64,000 nucleotides of DNA from the NCBI RefSeq assembly GCF_050920415.1, contig NZ_CP169309.1; one strand, 5' to 3'. The translations under genes and the position numbers were made by a program. Within the stretch, counting starts at the first letter, position 1; every line of letters begins with the position of its first letter. The stretch comes from Escherichia coli. Lineage in GTDB: Bacteria > Pseudomonadota > Gammaproteobacteria > Enterobacterales > Enterobacteriaceae. The notes beneath the pieces are model-generated. The model was not told the origin of the DNA, ran no database searches, and saw only the letters and a program-made list of their open reading frames with translations. Shown here one piece after another: positions 5,486-29,389 of the stretch.

Positions 5486-6184
5486 ATGGTTATGTTAGTG
5501 GATGACTGTCCACGATGTGGATCACAAAAAATAGCGTTTGATGTTAATGGGCTGAATTGCACTAGGGTTTACAATGCATTGGGCGGGGGTAAAACATACG
5601 AGTACGAGGTCTATTGTGTTTGCCGAGAGTGTCATAAAACGACAATGTTTCTTTGCAGACCTTTAACGAAAAATAAAACTTTAGATGGCTATAATTGGGA
5701 AAGTGGAATATTCGGCTTAAAGGAAGTTGCAGAGGTTGTTAGGCCTATATCACCGGCAGACTTAGCAGTAGAGGAGCCACCAGAGTTCTTACCTGAGCAT
5801 ATCAATAGTGCATATGAGGAAGGGGCGAAATGTTTGGCTATAGGTTGTTATAATGCAGCAGCAACCATGTTTAGGCTTTGCCTTGATTATGCCACAAAAG
5901 GACTTCTTCCTGATGGGGAGCAAGGGCCTGCGCAAAAAATAAGGAGAAGCCTAGGGTTAAGAATGGAGTGGTTATTTGATAATCATCTACTGCCTGAAGC
6001 TTTAAGGGAACTAGCTGAATGCGTTAAAGATGACGGAAATGATGGAGCGCATGAAGGTATTTTGGATAAAGCTGCTGCTGAGGATCTTGAAGATTTTACC
6101 TATCTTTTTTTAGAACGGCTTTACACTGAACCTCAACGCCTTATCGAAGCCAAGACAAGGCGTGAACAAAGAAGAAACAAATAA
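5486..6184 (+). CDS. orphan protein with N-terminal 4-Cys zinc ribbon and C-terminal DUF4145-like domain; candidate phage-encoded defence/abortive-infection gene
   Basis: CPRC...CREC motif at N-terminus; C-terminal region with LAECVKDDGNDGAHEG signature typical of DUF4145 as I recall it; agggaggag RBS; AT-rich; sits between IS21 and the portal gene. Confidence 0.6.
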   Translation: MVMLVDDCPRCGSQKIAFDVNGLNCTRVYNALGGGKTYEYEVYCVCRECHKTTMFLCRPLTKNKTLDGYNWESGIFGLKEVAEVVRPISPADLAVEEPPEFLPEHINSAYEEGAKCLAIGCYNAAATMFRLCLDYATKGLLPDGEQGPAQKIRRSLGLRMEWLFDNHLLPEALRELAECVKDDGNDGAHEGILDKAAAEDLEDFTYLFLERLYTEPQRLIEAKTRREQRRNK

Positions 6185-6192
6185 GTTCGGAA

Positions 6193-7230
6193 TTATTCTT
6201 CTGAAAGAATATAGGGCGTAAATTTAATCACTTCTTCGCCCAGCCAGTCGTTCAGCTCTTGTAGCCTTTTTTGCAAGGGAGTTAATTCATTACGTACAAA
6301 TACGCGACTGGCCTTCTCCACATCCCCAAACCCTCCAACATTATTAGGCATAATCCCCATCATTTGCGGCGGCACGCGGTGCGCAGCCATCATGTCGTCG
6401 CGGCTGACATTTTTGATATTCAAAAACTCATCCTTCGCCGCGACTTCTGACAATGGGATGATCTGAAGCCCGTCTTTTTTGCCGTTAGGCGAGTACATAA
6501 ACAGGTTGCGGAAGTTGCCTGGACCTTTGGCGCTTTTCATCGCATTGCGGAGGTTGTTCACATCCTCCTGGTTTTGCGCGGCATCGGTCATGTACATGAT
6601 AAAGCCCGCATGACTGCCGTTAATGTAATACTTGCGACGGAACAGCGTGGCGGACTCGTTGAGCAGGGCTGACGGAATGGCAGAAAGATAACCGGGCAGG
6701 CCGTAGATCTCCTGATTAATATCCGGTTCCATCAGATGAAAAATGCTGCCTTTCGTGAACTGATACGGCTGGGTTGTCATACCGTATTGCACAAACCAGT
6801 AGGTATCCAGGTCTAACCCGCGTCGGGTGTATTTTGCCAGTGCAGGCTCAAGGGCGATAACTTCACCGAAGCGGTTCGTGCGTTTCTCCAGGTAGGCGTT
6901 ACCAAAAACCAGATAGTCCTGCACAAAACGCGAAAAAGCCTGCTGGCTGAGCAGCGGGTGAGGGATGTAGGTGCTGGTCAGAATGTTGCACTTTACTGCA
7001 ATCGGGGAACTATGATGCACGGCAGCGCGGAAGGTGCGCGCCAGTCCGTCAAAGCTGACGGGCGGCTCATACCAGCGGTCCATCTGTACGCATTCCACAT
7101 AATCCAGCAGTTCTCGGCGGTCCAGAACAGGAACGGGATCGCCGAAGCTGAATGCTTCGGCTGTAGTTTGACTTTTAAGCTGGATCTGTTTCGTCGCCGC
7201 AGCGCGGTTCTTCTTACTCTTTCCCATCAA
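6193..7230 (-). CDS. portal protein (P2 gpQ-like)
   Basis: 345 aa, P2 Q-like; divergent from capsid operon; overlaps terminase gene by 4 nt. Confidence 0.9.
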   Translation of the reverse strand: MMGKSKKNRAAATKQIQLKSQTTAEAFSFGDPVPVLDRRELLDYVECVQMDRWYEPPVSFDGLARTFRAAVHHSSPIAVKCNILTSTYIPHPLLSQQAFSRFVQDYLVFGNAYLEKRTNRFGEVIALEPALAKYTRRGLDLDTYWFVQYGMTTQPYQFTKGSIFHLMEPDINQEIYGLPGYLSAIPSALLNESATLFRRKYYINGSHAGFIMYMTDAAQNQEDVNNLRNAMKSAKGPGNFRNLFMYSPNGKKDGLQIIPLSEVAAKDEFLNIKNVSRDDMMAAHRVPPQMMGIMPNNVGGFGDVEKASRVFVRNELTPLQKRLQELNDWLGEEVIKFTPYILSEE

Positions 7231-14578: not shown

Positions 14579-15109
14579 TTACGCTCTTAATAAACTTAAA
14601 TAACTTTTTATGCTTTGGCAAAAAGGGAAAAGGTCTATTTTAATTTTCCAGTTTTTTTTGTTTTGAACCCCAGAAGCAATAATAGAACCGTCCCAATATT
14701 TTATTCCATTTTTGCCGGTCTTTTTTGTTAACTCAAAACTTAATGCGTGAATAATTTTATTGCAGCATTCGCGTATAGAATCTTTAACATGACCATCTAT
14801 AACAAAAAGTATATTTTCATGTTCTTCAAATGCTTCTTTCTCAGGTGAGTAATCTGGGTTCCACTCATGTTCACTAGTGTCTTGGAGAATTCGTAGTTTT
14901 GTACAAAGGCTAATAAGATTGTTGCTAATGGTATATTCCAACCATCCGTTGTACGATAACTCCTCCATTTCAAATTCAGTTACTATAGAACCATCATATA
15001 CTTTCTGTGTGGAATATATACGCTGTAAATAAAATTCAGATGAACAGCATAATTGCTCAATTATTCTTGCGTGTTCTTCTATAGCGTAATAATCAATTGG
15101 ATGGCTCAT
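14579..15109 (-). CDS. AT-rich orphan gene antisense to the late operon (176 aa, no recognised domain)
   Basis: ORF on minus strand between S and V; aaagg RBS before ATG (MSHPIDYY); markedly AT-rich; ends 5 bp from S stop. Confidence 0.55.
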   Translation of the reverse strand: MSHPIDYYAIEEHARIIEQLCCSSEFYLQRIYSTQKVYDGSIVTEFEMEELSYNGWLEYTISNNLISLCTKLRILQDTSEHEWNPDYSPEKEAFEEHENILFVIDGHVKDSIRECCNKIIHALSFELTKKTGKNGIKYWDGSIIASGVQNKKNWKIKIDLFPFCQSIKSYLSLLRA

Positions 15110-15140
15110 TCTTTTACCTTTCTTTGATTGGAATTGTATT

Positions 15141-15158
15141 TGTGTCATTTACCACACA
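15141..15158 (+). promoter_or_regulatory. Ogr/Delta-type late promoter box (TGT-N12-ACA) upstream of V
   Basis: tgt-gtcatttaccac-aca ~50 bp upstream of V start. Confidence 0.4.
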
Positions 15159-15204
15159 AGGACGTATTGATGCCATAGATTCAAGGTCCGTGCAACCTAA
15201 CCCT

Positions 15205-15783
15205 ATGAACGCACAACTAACCGAAATCATGCGCCTTATCACCAACCTGATCCGCACTGGTGTAGTCACCGAAGTGGACCGGGAAAACTGGCTTTGCCGG
15301 GTTAAAACGGGCGAGCTTGAAACCAACTGGATCAGCTGGCTGACGCTGCGTGCCGGGAATGCCCGCACATGGTGGCGACCATCGGAAGGTGAGCAGGTGG
15401 TGCTGCTGAGTCTGGGCGGCAATCTGGAAACTGCCTTTGCGCTGCCCGCTGTCTATTCGAATCAGTTCGCACCACCGTCGACGTCGGCAGACGCCTGCGT
15501 GACAGAACATCCTGACGGCGGCTGGTTTGAATACGAACCCACTACCGGGCGCTGGTATGTCAGGGGCATCAAATCAATGGTCATTGAGGCCGCTGACAAC
15601 ATCACCATGAAAACCAGTGAGTTTGTACTGGAGGCTGACCGCACGCGCATTAACAGCGAAGTGGTGATCAATGGTGGCGTTACCCAGGGCGGCGGAGCGA
15701 TGAGTTCTAACGGGATCGTGGTTGATGCGCATCAGCATACTGACGTCCTGAAAGGCGGCGACACAACCGGAGGCCCGGTATGA
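15205..15783 (+). CDS. baseplate spike/assembly protein V (P2 gpV-like)
   Basis: Similarity to P2 V; start set at ATG 15205 (MNAQLTEIMRL). Confidence 0.85.
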   Translation: MNAQLTEIMRLITNLIRTGVVTEVDRENWLCRVKTGELETNWISWLTLRAGNARTWWRPSEGEQVVLLSLGGNLETAFALPAVYSNQFAPPSTSADACVTEHPDGGWFEYEPTTGRWYVRGIKSMVIEAADNITMKTSEFVLEADRTRINSEVVINGGVTQGGGAMSSNGIVVDAHQHTDVLKGGDTTGGPV

Positions 15784-28107: not shown

Positions 28108-28175
28108 ATGGTTCTCAATATTGGTATTTTGTGTATCATTGCAATGATTCTGATAGCAAAGGTAGGGATCTGGAT

Positions 28176-28394
28176 ATGATGAATTGTCCAAAGTGTGGTC
28201 ATGCGGCGCACACAAGGAGCAGTTTTCAAGTAACAGAAAGCACCAAAGAGCGTTACTGCCAGTGCCAAAATATTAACTGCGGGAGCACTTTTGTTACCCA
28301 TGAAACAGTGGTCCGGTTTATTGTGACACCTGCAGTGATTGCCACAGCCCCTCCACATCCATTGCCAGGTGGTCAGGGCCATATGAATTTTTAA
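28176..28394 (+). CDS. ogr: Ogr/Delta zinc-finger late transcription activator
   Basis: MMNCPKCGHAAHTRSS...ERYCQCQNINCGSTF: C-x2-C...C-x4-C pattern of Ogr; 72 aa from ATG 28176. Confidence 0.8.
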   Translation: MMNCPKCGHAAHTRSSFQVTESTKERYCQCQNINCGSTFVTHETVVRFIVTPAVIATAPPHPLPGGQGHMNF

Positions 28395-28420
28395 GAAAGA
28401 GAACCTGCTACGGCAGGTTT

Positions 28421-28903
28421 TTATTCATCTGGGATCTCACCCGTTTCAAGAAAATGTATAAAGCCAGGCTCATCTATGATGATAGTGCCTTTCATCCTGG
28501 CTGCCGATACTTTTGATGGGCCTGCATTGTAACCGCAACAGAGCATCTGAAGGTTTTGGGTTACAGATGTTCTTACCGTTAATCCTTGTTCATTCGCCTT
28601 ATCAACCAACCTTTCTTTATCTGCTTTCTTAAATCCGGTGAAACACACATCGAATGTATTTTTTTTCGGACCTGACTGCTTAGTGAGATGTGAGTAGTTT
28701 TCGGGGAGGAATGACGCGCATTCCTGAATGGCTTGTTCTTGTGAATCGTATTGTTTAAGAATGCGGTCTTTTCGGAAGGTTTTTATTCGATCGGTGTTCT
28801 TACAAATGCCCTGTATGTGATTTTCGCTATAACTGATGCTCTGTATTGAGTGAACACCGATACGACCATTTGCATTGATGTAAACAAAGTGAAGTTCTTC
28901 CAT
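28421..28903 (-). CDS. orphan protein with N-terminal WYL-like region and C-terminal BRCT-like domain (160 aa)
   Basis: R-x-F-R-x-D-R-I signature (IKTFRKDRI) in N-half; C-half FDVCFTGF...CCGYNAGPSKVSAARMKGTIIIDEPGF fits BRCT pattern; AT-rich; between ogr and ssrA. Confidence 0.5.
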   Translation of the reverse strand: MEELHFVYINANGRIGVHSIQSISYSENHIQGICKNTDRIKTFRKDRILKQYDSQEQAIQECASFLPENYSHLTKQSGPKKNTFDVCFTGFKKADKERLVDKANEQGLTVRTSVTQNLQMLCCGYNAGPSKVSAARMKGTIIIDEPGFIHFLETGEIPDE

Positions 28904-28989
28904 GTCAAACCTCTTTGCATGATTTCAAGATGGCGACAGGCAAGATGGACGCAAAAGTCTGTCGCCATTTTGCCGCCACTACCTAAGAA

Positions 28990-29026
28990 AAAGGGGCTAC
29001 GCTTTCACGTAACCCCTTGATTTATT
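28990..29026 (-). terminator. ssrA transcription terminator
   Basis: On minus strand ggggttacg-tgaaag-cgtagcccc hairpin followed by ttttt, directly after tmRNA 3' end. Confidence 0.5.
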
Positions 29027-29389
29027 TGGTGGAGCTGGCGGGAGTTGAACCCGCGTCCGAAATTCCTACATCCTCGGTACTACATGCTTAGTCAGTCTTT
29101 ACATTCGCTTGCCAGCTGCGGACGGACACGCCACTAACAAACTAGCCTGATTAAGTTTTAACGCTTCAACCCCAGGCAGGGCTTCCACGCGATCTCTTTT
29201 GGGTTTGACCTCTCTTGATCCCCGTCCTAAGAGCGGAGGCTAGGGAGAGAGGGCTCTAAGCAGGTTATTAAGCTGCTAAAGCGTAGTTTTCGTCGTTTGC
29301 GACTATTTTTTGCGGCTTTTTACGAGGCCAACCGCCCCTCGGCATGCACCTTGGGTTTCGCAAATCCCGTCGAATCCAGAATCAGCCCC
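29027..29389 (-). ncRNA. ssrA: tmRNA (SsrA), 363 nt
   Basis: Reverse complement matches E. coli tmRNA from GGGGCUGAUUCUGG 5' end to GCCAGCUCCACCA 3' end, including tag-encoding region. Confidence 0.95.

What the first reader, a model, noticed from the sequence alone, without database searches (positions are those of the whole stretch)
28421..28903. Small WYL-like/BRCT orphan protein between ogr and the ssrA attachment end
A 160-aa ORF, AT-rich, lies in the ~600 bp between the last backbone gene (ogr) and the tmRNA 3' end. The N-half carries an R-x-F-R-x-D-R-I motif reminiscent of WYL ligand-sensing domains and the C-half looks like a BRCT fold. WYL proteins often regulate defence systems, whereas BRCT domains bind phosphorylated or nicked DNA and proteins. 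A standalone fusion at a prophage end is unusual and could be a sensor/regulator or a moron with an exclusion role.
Basis: partly seen in the sequence, partly recalled or inferred. Interest (0 to 1): 0.7.

Follow-up and report, generated by a model that had tools for sequence, protein, structure and literature searches.

The report
Prophage WYL–BRCT immunity-region protein
The 160-residue gene is real and is a fusion of a WYL ligand-sensing barrel and a BRCT phosphate-binding domain, but it is not an orphan: it belongs to a widespread, uncharacterised phage family that usually sits right after the prophage repressor gene and is a good candidate for a new exclusion or damage-sensing function.

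Summary
The ORF at 28421-28903 (minus strand, 160 aa) is a real gene. It is gp32 (CARTA_32) of the P2-like prophage Cartapus of E. coli LF82, integrated at ssrA.

- Residues 82-156 are a BRCT domain of the RFC1/LigA type, with the phosphate pocket T89/G90/K96/K131 conserved.

It is not a truncated ligase or an exonuclease, although databases call it both.

It is not an orphan either. PHROG 2561 covers it full length, 758 cluster representatives match it, and about 170 complete E. coli genomes carry it.

In 20 of 24 distinct contexts the gene lies one ORF or less downstream of a CI-type repressor on the same strand. That is the position of lambda rexAB. Variable defence-like cargo (TIR-like, bSEFIR) often follows. 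About 30 of 53 longer relatives fuse the module to 1-4 transmembrane helices.

The prophage-end position is specific to the Cartapus clade. There attP separates the gene from cI-int, and integration places it 123 nt downstream of ssrA, co-oriented. Published RNA-seq lists it as a lysogen-expressed moron.

Function is untested. My best guess is a lysogen-expressed nucleic-acid sensor for exclusion or abortive defence.

The parts
28421..28903 (-). CDS of the 160-aa WYL-BRCT protein (Cartapus gp32 / CARTA_32; RefSeq WP_000391796.1), stop codon included
   Evidence: ORF list. 100% identical to Cartapus gp32. RefSeq annotates it 'hypothetical' or 'BRCT domain-containing protein'. PHROG 2561 matches full length at 2.5e-77.
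28712..28903 (-). WYL (Sm-like five-stranded beta-barrel) domain plus one helix, residues 1-64. Signature K41-TFRKDRI-48; Y8 and T42 invariant, R44 nearly invariant, R47 nearly invariant across 65 diverse representatives.
28661..28711 (-). Variable linker, residues 65-81: a short helix followed by a lower-confidence stretch
   Evidence: pLDDT falls to about 70 for residues 71-80. This is the length-variable, poorly conserved region of the alignment.
28424..28660 (-). BRCT domain, residues 82-160, with conserved pocket T89-G90, K96 and K131
28910..28915 (-). Shine-Dalgarno AAGAGG, six bases upstream of the ATG
   Evidence: Read directly from the sequence. An equivalent AAAGGTG box is conserved in divergent relatives.
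28926..28972 (.). Inverted and direct repeats with a TGGCGRCA core. Probably Int arm-type sites of the attP P' arm rather than an operator of this gene.
   Evidence: Inverted repeat I2 (14-nt arms, 93% complementary) and direct repeat D10. The same motif occurs on the other attP arm of Cartapus. It is conserved as TGGCGGCAAAATGGCG(A/G)CAG or TTGGCAGCAAAATGGCAGCAG in divergent relatives, including ones without an ssrA 3' end upstream. Assigning it to Int is inference.
28991..29018 (-). Intrinsic terminator of ssrA (12-pair stem and T-run). It is carried on the phage attP side.
   Evidence: Terminator scan. Identical in the Cartapus phage genome.
29027..29071 (-). Last 45 nt of ssrA, identical between the prophage junction and Cartapus attP (att core region)
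   Evidence: Alignment of the window with Cartapus attP: identity starts at window position 29071. tmRNA call.
28402..28419 (.). Hairpin between the convergent ogr and WYL-BRCT genes, a likely bidirectional terminator
   Evidence: Terminator scan found it on the minus strand. Inverted repeat I4.
28177..28394 (+). ogr/Delta-like late activator, the convergent neighbour. Context only.
   Evidence: RefSeq and Cartapus annotation.

Best explanation
The gene encodes a small two-domain sensor or binder that the prophage expresses during lysogeny.

The N-terminal WYL barrel is of the kind that binds single-stranded nucleic acid in DriD, PafBC and CapW. The C-terminal BRCT is of the RFC1/LigA type, whose T-G...K/R...K pocket binds a 5' phosphate at a DNA end or junction.

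I infer that the two domains together recognise a single-strand/double-strand DNA junction or end carrying a 5' phosphate. Such structures appear when foreign phage DNA enters, replicates or recombines, or when DNA is damaged. I further infer that this recognition serves the lysogen as superinfection exclusion or abortive defence. That would be functionally analogous to lambda RexA/RexB, which occupy the same position after cI.

Relatives with fused transmembrane helices would act at the inner membrane. The free 160-aa form would act alone, by capping or occluding the DNA structure, or through a partner.

Shown: the gene, its two folds, the conserved pocket residues, the synteny with repressor genes, the membrane fusions, and a published listing of transcription in the lysogen.
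Inferred: the ligand, the exclusion or defence role, and the Rex analogy.
For: Folds:
- BRCT.

Pocket: T89, G90 and K131 are invariant and K96 is at least 90% conserved. They align with the T-G, R and K of yeast and human RFC1 BRCT.

The structures cited for CapW and DriD show ssDNA on the WYL face (PMC11662680).

Synteny: in 20 of 24 distinct contexts the gene is at most one ORF downstream of a CI-type repressor on the same strand. This holds in P2-like phages and at least one phage carrying a lambda-type replication protein P. Five of the upstream ORFs were confirmed as repressors by PHROG 4. The others rest on record annotation, precomputed Pfam hits or sequence motifs.

Membrane link:
- About 30 of 53 longer relatives carry 1-4 predicted transmembrane helices fused to the module.
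- Where one gene intervenes between the repressor and this gene, in Burkholderia and Serratia, it encodes a membrane-anchored protein.

Neighbouring cargo is defence-like: a TIR effector-like protein, bSEFIR, PDC-M04A, Mrr and methylases.

Expression: 15-fold above prophage background in the LF82 lysogen, against 5-fold for cI (PMC9928086).

Moron-like composition: 41% GC against 53%.
Against: - No experiment on any family member was found.
- No PADLOC or NCBIfam defence model covers the protein. Hits to PDC-S48 and GapS2 cover the BRCT part only.
- The protein is not basic: pI 6.95 overall and 5.3 for the BRCT part. That is unlike many DNA binders, so the BRCT pocket could bind a phosphoprotein or a nucleotide instead.
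- The W of the WYL triad, and the arginines that flank it in CapW, are not conserved here.
- The Cartapus protein has no membrane segment and no obvious effector partner.
- No sigma-70 promoter was found between the ssrA terminator and the ATG. The RNA-seq signal could therefore be read-through from the very abundant tmRNA gene.
- Position after cI fits a switch-modulating role equally well.
Confidence: 0.4

Rival explanations
1. The protein modulates the lysis-lysogeny switch. It senses ssDNA or broken DNA, as the WYL regulators DriD, PafBC and CapW do. It then acts on the co-transcribed CI repressor, on Int, or on excision. This would give SOS-independent tuning of induction or help establish lysogeny.
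For: It is tightly and repeatedly linked to cI and often sits between cI and int. Characterised WYL domains report DNA damage by binding ssDNA (PMC11662680). From my own knowledge, lambda RexA, in the same position, has also been reported to influence the switch. Cartapus is spontaneously induced at a low level.
Against: There is no DNA-binding HTH or other output domain known to act on transcription. Frequent fusion to transmembrane helices is hard to reconcile with a soluble switch factor. The family occurs with both S24-cleavable and non-cleavable CI types. It also occurs in non-prophage islands.
Confidence: 0.25
2. The protein is a DNA-metabolism accessory factor for the phage's own genome. 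It binds nicks, gaps or cohesive ends to recruit or compete with host LigA or clamp-loader functions. It would do this during circularisation, integration or repair, or protect ends from nucleases.
For: The BRCT is closest in sequence to the DNA-binding BRCTs of RFC1 and LigA. In many phages the gene is co-oriented with int and adjacent to it or to attP.
Against: Expression from the lysogenic operon, and in the stable lysogen, does not fit a function needed at DNA entry. Membrane-tethered variants and defence-like neighbours point elsewhere. Presence is patchy among P2-like phages: only 28 of 50,697 phage records match. That marks it as accessory cargo, not core DNA metabolism.
Confidence: 0.1
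3. The gene is a degenerate remnant of a larger gene (an NAD-dependent ligase or a DEDDh exonuclease, as databases name it) with no function of its own.
For: Database names: 'DNA ligase' (PHROG 2561, RefSeq phage records, JGI) and 'putative exonuclease' (Cartapus).
Against: Only the terminal BRCT of LigA or PRK06063 aligns. Scores are 21-26 bits against curated cut-offs of 389-444. The N-half is a WYL barrel absent from those enzymes. The 155-175 aa architecture is conserved end to end across Enterobacteria, Pasteurellaceae, Vibrio, Burkholderia and Pseudomonas. dN is 0.21-0.35 with saturated dS. It is transcribed in the lysogen.
Confidence: 0.02

Closest known systems
wHTH-WYL-WCX regulators (BrxR, CapW, PafBC, DriD)
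   Different: This protein has no winged-helix DNA-binding domain and no WCX domain. The barrel is followed by a BRCT domain instead. The W of the WYL triad and the CapW-type flanking arginines are not conserved. It is therefore unlikely to be a transcription factor of that type.
DNA-binding BRCT domains of RFC1 (clamp-loader large subunit) and NAD-dependent ligase LigA
   Same: These are the best sequence matches among solved structures, at 4e-6 and 3e-5. The fold is the same. The T-G, R/K and K pocket residues are conserved. From my own knowledge of the RFC p140 BRCT work, those residues bind the 5' phosphate of DNA.
   Different: This is a single BRCT fused to a WYL barrel, with no catalytic or AAA+ domains. 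The domain is acidic (pI 5.3). DNA binding has not been tested.
Lambda RexA/RexB (and similar exclusion genes co-transcribed with cI)
   Same: The family occupies the same genomic niche, immediately downstream of the repressor on the same strand and expressed in the lysogen. It also shows a cytoplasmic nucleic-acid-binding module combined with membrane segments, fused in about 30 relatives. The statements about Rex rest on my own knowledge.
   Different: There is no detected sequence or fold relationship to RexA or RexB. The Cartapus protein has no membrane part or partner. No exclusion phenotype has been shown.
PHROG 2561 ('DNA ligase') and PHROG 36782
   Same: The query matches PHROG 2561 over its full length at 2.5e-77, so it is a member of that catalogued phage protein family. 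PHROG 36782 is the version with an extra C-terminal domain.
   Different: The PHROG name 'DNA ligase' is an annotation carried over from the BRCT similarity. No ligase domains are present.
GapS2 (single-protein anti-phage system of Vibrio GMT islands) and PADLOC candidate PDC-S48
   Same: Their C-terminal roughly 70-80 residues give weak matches to the BRCT part of this family: GapS2 E about 1e-3 in two homologs, PDC-S48 at 1.7e-7. GapS2 has experimentally shown anti-phage activity (bioRxiv 10.1101/2023.03.28.534373).
   Different: The matches are confined to the BRCT region, fall far below the curated cut-off (19 against 330 bits), and are no stronger than those to LigA. The N-terminal parts do not match. 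This is a shared domain, not family membership.

Membership tests
WYL domain (Pfam PF13280) | Five-stranded Sm/SH3-like beta-barrel fold | tested here: met
WYL domain (Pfam PF13280) | Significant match to the family profile | tested here: inconclusive
   The query itself gets no Pfam WYL hit and PADLOC WYL at E = 0.027. Homologs do match: Pfam WYL in 5 of 31 and 23 of 44 at E <= 0.1, best 1.4e-6; PADLOC WYL down to 1e-8 on the same region. Membership therefore rests on transitive homology plus the fold.
WYL domain (Pfam PF13280) | Signature motifs: the W-Y-L triad and RxFRxDRI | tested here: inconclusive
   K41-TFRKDRI-48 is present and conserved: T42 invariant, R44 nearly invariant, R47 nearly invariant in 65 representatives. 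The triad is N-H-I in the query and [E/D]-Y-[I/L] in the family, so the W is missing.
WYL domain (Pfam PF13280) | Binds a negatively charged ligand (ssDNA, ssRNA or nucleotide) on the top face | not testable with these tools
   Needs binding assays or a co-structure.
wHTH-WYL-WCX transcription regulators (BrxR/CapW/PafBC/DriD) | N-terminal winged helix-turn-helix DNA-binding domain | tested here: not met
   The barrel starts at residue 3. No HTH family was found in the query, or beyond a single weak HTH_31 hit in 44 longer homologs.
wHTH-WYL-WCX transcription regulators (BrxR/CapW/PafBC/DriD) | C-terminal WCX extension domain | tested here: not met
   The region after the barrel is a linker plus a BRCT fold.
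BRCT domain (Pfam PF00533) | beta-alpha-beta-beta-alpha-beta-alpha BRCT fold and a profile match | tested here: met
BRCT domain, 5'-phosphate/DNA-binding subclass (RFC1, LigA) | Conserved T/S-G, R/K and K phosphate-pocket residues | tested here: met
   T89, G90 and K131 invariant, K96 at least 90% conserved. They align to the FTG, R and K of yeast and human RFC1. The role of these residues comes from my own knowledge of the literature.
BRCT domain, 5'-phosphate/DNA-binding subclass (RFC1, LigA) | Actual binding of 5'-phosphorylated DNA | not testable with these tools
   Needs EMSA or fluorescence polarisation with 5'-P against 5'-OH substrates. The acidic pI is a caveat.
NAD-dependent DNA ligase LigA | Adenylation, OB, Zn-finger and HhH domains, and a score above the curated cut-off | tested here: not met
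   Only profile positions 547-650 of 652 align. The score is 20.9 bits against a cut-off of 444.
DEDDh exonuclease (PRK06063) | DEDDh exonuclease domain | tested here: not met
   Only the BRCT tail of the profile aligns (positions 229-307 of 331). The score is 26.4 bits against a cut-off of 389. Pfam finds no RNase_T or exonuclease domain.
Rex-like exclusion genes co-transcribed with cI | Located directly downstream of the repressor in the lysogenic operon | tested here: inconclusive
   Met for the family in 20 of 24 contexts. In this window the gene is cut off from cI-int by attP and sits at the other prophage end.
Rex-like exclusion genes co-transcribed with cI | Excludes superinfecting phage, with a membrane effector | not testable with these tools
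   Transmembrane fusions exist in relatives but not in this protein. Phage-challenge experiments are needed.
GapS2 anti-phage protein (NF047932) | Full-length match above the curated cut-off (330 bits) | tested here: not met
   The query gives no hit. Homologs reach at most 18.9 bits, over the BRCT region only.

The most novel reading that the evidence does not exclude
The WYL-BRCT module is the sensor of a previously unrecognised, widespread class of prophage exclusion or abortive-infection systems encoded next to the repressor gene. It would detect 5'-phosphorylated single-strand/double-strand DNA junctions of incoming or replicating phage DNA. It would then act either directly, by capping the DNA, or through a fused or adjacent membrane segment. 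That would make it a single-chain functional analogue of lambda RexAB. In the Cartapus clade its expression would in addition be coupled to integration, which places it right behind the host ssrA gene.
Probability: 0.25. Interest if true: 0.7.

Novelty: new variant of a known kind. Interest (0 to 1): 0.5.

Why it matters
Genes transcribed with the prophage repressor are the classic place for functions that change the lysogen, such as immunity, exclusion and virulence.

This family has no described function. Yet it recurs directly after cI-type repressors in prophages of Enterobacteria, Pasteurellaceae, Vibrio, Burkholderia and Pseudomonas. Many of its relatives are membrane-tethered.

If it is an exclusion or defence sensor, it would add a new sensing logic: a WYL domain without a transcription-factor output, paired with a 5'-phosphate-binding BRCT. 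It would also explain a conserved but ignored gene in about 3% of complete E. coli genomes, including the Crohn's-associated strain LF82.

If it instead tunes induction, it would be a new input into the P2/186-type switch.

In either case the current database names, 'DNA ligase' and 'exonuclease', are wrong and should be corrected.

Tried and rejected
- NCBIfam, PADLOC and Pfam gave no full-length family other than PHROG 2561. All other hits are confined to the BRCT part.
- GapS2 lead. Weak hits in homologs made me ask whether GapS2 shares the architecture. The matches stay within the BRCT region and are weaker than those to LigA, so I rejected it as a family link.
- K139 lead. From memory, Vibrio phage K139 has exclusion genes between cI and int. 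tblastn with the Vibrio PV94 homolog found no K139 match, so its orf2 is not a member.
- Fusion partners. The soluble extra domain with a WTQG...F.F..GD motif, found in 8-11 longer relatives, has no Pfam or PDB match and only the unnamed PHROGs 36782 and 31886. It gives no functional clue.
- The 'RES, NAD+-binding' annotation of the neighbouring Cartapus gp33 got no Pfam or PADLOC support in my scans. I therefore did not build a sensor-plus-NADase model on it.
- Promoter search. No sigma-70-like site lies between the ssrA terminator and the ATG, and hand inspection found nothing convincing. The source of transcription is unresolved.
- The inverted repeat upstream of the ATG looked at first like an operator. 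Comparison with both attP arms and with divergent relatives makes Int arm sites more likely.
- Two IMG/VR scans were dominated by near-identical enterobacterial prophage ends. One alignment was too diverse to search with.
- dN/dS could not be computed as a ratio because dS is saturated.

Full report
**What is at the coordinates**

The window holds a 160-codon ORF at 28421-28903 on the minus strand. The ATG is at 28901-28903 and an AAGAGG Shine-Dalgarno box lies six bases upstream. The ORF sits between ogr (28177-28394, plus strand) and the 3' end of the tmRNA gene ssrA (29027-29389, minus strand). smpB follows ssrA.

The ORF has 41% GC against 53% for the prophage part of the window. The DNA is 100% identical to E. 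coli LF82 and to 14 other listed E. coli chromosomes. About 170 of 5,426 complete E. coli genomes carry at least 80% of the 636-bp interval.

The protein is 100% identical to gp32 (CARTA_32) of Escherichia phage Cartapus, the P2-like prophage of LF82. Window coordinate equals Cartapus coordinate plus 5608, so the window starts inside the prophage. The cI, int and gp33 end of the prophage lies outside the window.

**Is it a real gene?**

Yes, on four grounds:
- It matches PHROG 2561 over its full length at E = 2.5e-77.
- It has 122 homologous 90% clusters in one database. In a library of 50% representatives it has 758 matches at E <= 1e-3 and 373 at E <= 1e-10.
- Against relatives of 58-74% protein identity, dN is 0.21-0.35 while synonymous sites are saturated.
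- Misson et al. 2023 list 'LF82_783 putative exonuclease protein' as one of two Cartapus morons. It is expressed 15-fold above local prophage background in LF82 grown in LB, against 5-fold for cI (PMC9928086). CARTA_32 is the only Cartapus gene with that product name.

**Domains**

An AlphaFold model built on a 31-sequence alignment has mean pLDDT 91.9. It shows five strands (residues 3-52), two short helices, a lower-confidence linker (about 71-80), and a beta-alpha-beta-beta-alpha-beta-alpha unit (85-154).

C-terminal half:
- It is a BRCT domain. Pfam BRCT gives E = 1.5e-3 on the query and hits 26 of 31 homologs at E <= 0.1, best 3e-7.
- A family profile finds the BRCT domains of yeast and human RFC1 (4e-6, 2e-5) and of LigA (3e-5) among solved structures.
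- F88-T89-G90-F91 and K131 are invariant and K96 is at least 90% conserved.
- In the printed alignments these fall on the FTG, the R and the GxSK lysine of RFC1. From my own knowledge of the RFC p140 BRCT studies, those are T415, G416, R423 and K458, the residues that hold the 5' phosphate of DNA.

N-terminal half:
- It is a WYL domain. The query alone is below Pfam's reach, and PADLOC WYL gives E = 0.027.
- Homologs are hit on the same region by Pfam WYL, in 5 of 31 and 23 of 44 at E <= 0.1, best 1.4e-6. PADLOC WYL models reach 1e-8.
- The signature K41-TFRKDRI-48 is conserved. Y8 and T42 are invariant, and R44 and R47 are nearly invariant.
- The tryptophan of the W-Y-L triad is not conserved: N-H-I here, [E/D]-Y-[I/L] in the family.

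**What it is not**

It is not a truncated ligase or an exonuclease. Only the terminal BRCT of LigA and of the DEDDh exonuclease model aligns, at 21-26 bits against curated cut-offs of 389-444. The N-half is a fold those enzymes lack.

It is not a BrxR/CapW/PafBC/DriD-type regulator either. It has no HTH and no WCX domain.

The WYL+BRCT combination is not new as an architecture. Makarova et al. 2014 list BRCT among the domains fused to WYL (PMC4012209). I found no paper that characterises such a protein.

**Genomic context, the main new result**

In phage records and assembled contigs the gene is almost always the first or second gene after a CI-type repressor, on the same strand.

| Context | Arrangement |
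|---|---|
| Mannheimia PHL101 | directly after the CI-like repressor |
| Vibrio PV94 | directly after the repressor |
| Xenorhabdus | cI, this gene, int |
| Nine IMG/VR proviruses | gaps of 9-30 nt after the upstream ORF; five upstream ORFs confirmed as PHROG 4 repressors, the rest judged by sequence |
| Four transmembrane-fused or domain-extended relatives | directly after HTH or S24 repressors |
| A relative with two modules | after an HTH+S24 repressor |
| A Pseudomonas phage carrying a lambda-type replication protein P | S24 repressor, one 99-aa ORF, then this gene |
| Burkholderia and Serratia | one intervening gene, encoding a membrane-anchored protein |

That is 20 of 24 distinct contexts. 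The four exceptions are the Cartapus clade, a small integrative island carrying Mrr and a methylase, a chromosomal site near a PLD-like gene and umuDC, and a site next to a P4-type integrase.

The genes that follow it before int are variable and defence-like. They include a TIR effector-like protein (PADLOC 1e-12), bSEFIR, the candidate PDC-M04A, and a HATPase with a methylase. The cI-int interval of these phages therefore looks like a cargo hotspot in which this gene is the constant first member.

**Fusions**

Among the 150 best representatives, 53 are at least 230 residues long. About 30 of these have 1-4 predicted transmembrane helices joined to the module by a low-complexity linker, mostly at the N-terminus. 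A further 8-11 carry a soluble domain of unknown function with a WTQG...F.F..GD motif. It has no Pfam or PDB match and belongs to PHROG 36782. Some relatives have two modules or extra BRCT repeats.

**The Cartapus clade and the att site**

On the circular Cartapus map the order is cI, int, gp33, attP, this gene, all on one strand, and the gene converges on ogr.

attP carries the last 45 nt of ssrA (window 29027-29071). It also carries the ssrA terminator (28991-29018) and TGGCGRCA repeats on both arms.

Integration therefore moves the gene to the far end of the prophage. There it lies 123 nt downstream of the host ssrA gene and is co-oriented with it. In enterobacterial relatives that retain the upstream sequence, down to about 70% protein identity, the same layout recurs: the ssrA 3' end, the terminator and the GTGGCGGCAAAATGGCG(A/G)CAG repeat lie within about 120 nt of the ATG. 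More divergent relatives (57-65% identity) keep the repeat and the Shine-Dalgarno box but show no ssrA 3' end in the upstream sequence available.

I read the repeats, including the 14-nt inverted repeat at 28926-28972, as Int arm-type sites rather than an operator. That is inference.

No sigma-70-like promoter was found between the terminator and the ATG. Whether the published expression comes from an unrecognised promoter or from read-through of the very strong ssrA unit is open.

**Most likely function**

Characterised WYL domains bind ssDNA on the face that carries the conserved motif (PMC11662680). RFC1-type BRCT domains bind a 5' phosphate at a DNA junction, which I state from my own knowledge. 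The pocket residues are the most conserved positions of this family.

The simplest reading is a bipartite reader of single-strand/double-strand DNA junctions or ends with a 5' phosphate. Four features resemble exclusion systems such as lambda rexAB:
- expression with the repressor;
- moron-like composition;
- defence-like neighbours;
- frequent membrane tethering.

I therefore favour a lysogen-expressed sensor or binder for superinfection exclusion or abortive defence, at confidence 0.4.

The main rival is a DNA-damage or infection sensor that modulates the switch, at 0.25. It fits the linkage to cI and int but not the membrane fusions or the lack of an output domain.

A DNA-metabolism accessory role is less likely, at 0.1. 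A gene remnant is effectively excluded, at 0.02.

Caveats:
- The protein is not basic (pI 6.95; BRCT part 5.3), so the pocket might bind a phosphoprotein or a nucleotide.
- This particular protein has no membrane part or evident effector.
- Nothing has been tested experimentally.

**Verdict**

'Orphan' and 'unusual position' are not supported.

The gene is a catalogued but uncharacterised and misnamed phage family. The synteny with repressor genes and the membrane-fused relatives appear not to have been described, and they make it a reasonable candidate for a new exclusion or sensing function. That places it as a new variant of a known kind (WYL-domain sensors), of moderate interest.

Noticed in passing
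window 5770-6468 (+), Cartapus CARTA_1: A DUF4145 protein lies right after the cos site, at the position of the P2 tin/old cargo hotspot. It gives a weak PADLOC hit to the anti-phage gene PD-T7-4 (E = 1.2e-6). It may be a second defence-type moron of this prophage.
   Followed up: partly
window 28926-28978 and Cartapus attP (L001:3714-4000): TGGCGRCA repeats occur on both attP arms. They are conserved as a tandem pair (TGGCGGCAAAATGGCGRCAG or TTGGCAGCAAAATGGCAGCAG) in divergent relatives, including ones without an ssrA 3' end upstream. They are probably integrase arm-type sites.
   Followed up: partly
window 28991-29071: The phage supplies both the last 45 nt of ssrA and the ssrA terminator. 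In lysogens, tmRNA 3'-end formation therefore depends on phage DNA.
   Followed up: partly
Cartapus gp33 (L001:2508-3713), outside the window: This 401-aa protein lies between int and attP and is annotated 'putative RES protein, NAD+ binding domain'. It got no Pfam or PADLOC support in my scans, only the unnamed PHROG 7835. On the circular map it is the immediate upstream neighbour of the WYL-BRCT gene.
   Followed up: partly
homologs P0142, P0121, P0152, P0154, P0193, P0204, P0217, P0254 (alignment A7): A conserved soluble domain of about 150-200 residues, with a W.F.V..F..ALDIK...WTQG..F.F..GD motif, is fused to the WYL-BRCT module. It has no Pfam or PDB match (PHROGs 36782 and 31886).
   Followed up: partly
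NCBIfam NF047932 (GapS2) against homologs P0118, P0237 and PHL101 ORF34: The C-terminal roughly 70-80 positions of the GapS2 anti-phage protein model match the BRCT part of this family weakly (E 1e-3 to 0.1). GapS2 was described as having no recognisable domain, so it may end in a BRCT-like domain.
   Followed up: partly
L007:7504-8355 and L142:6527-7471: In Xenorhabdus and one IMG/VR provirus, the gene after int encodes a 283-314 aa protein. It has two N-terminal transmembrane helices with a shared ESWGYFGSFI motif. This is another recurrent, unnamed cargo gene at the att-proximal end.
   Followed up: no
L065:5001-5480: One close relative (96% identity) has an in-frame TGA within the aligned coding region. 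It may be a pseudogene or a sequencing error.
   Followed up: no
window 28131-28394: The mechanical ORF for ogr starts at a GTG at 28131 (87 aa). RefSeq and the Cartapus record start it at 28177 (72 aa).
   Followed up: no
window 14863-15393 (-), Cartapus CARTA_14: A hypothetical gene lies on the opposite strand inside the late tail/lysis gene block. It is a possible candidate for the second Cartapus moron (LF82_789) listed in PMC9928086. I did not establish the identity.
   Followed up: no
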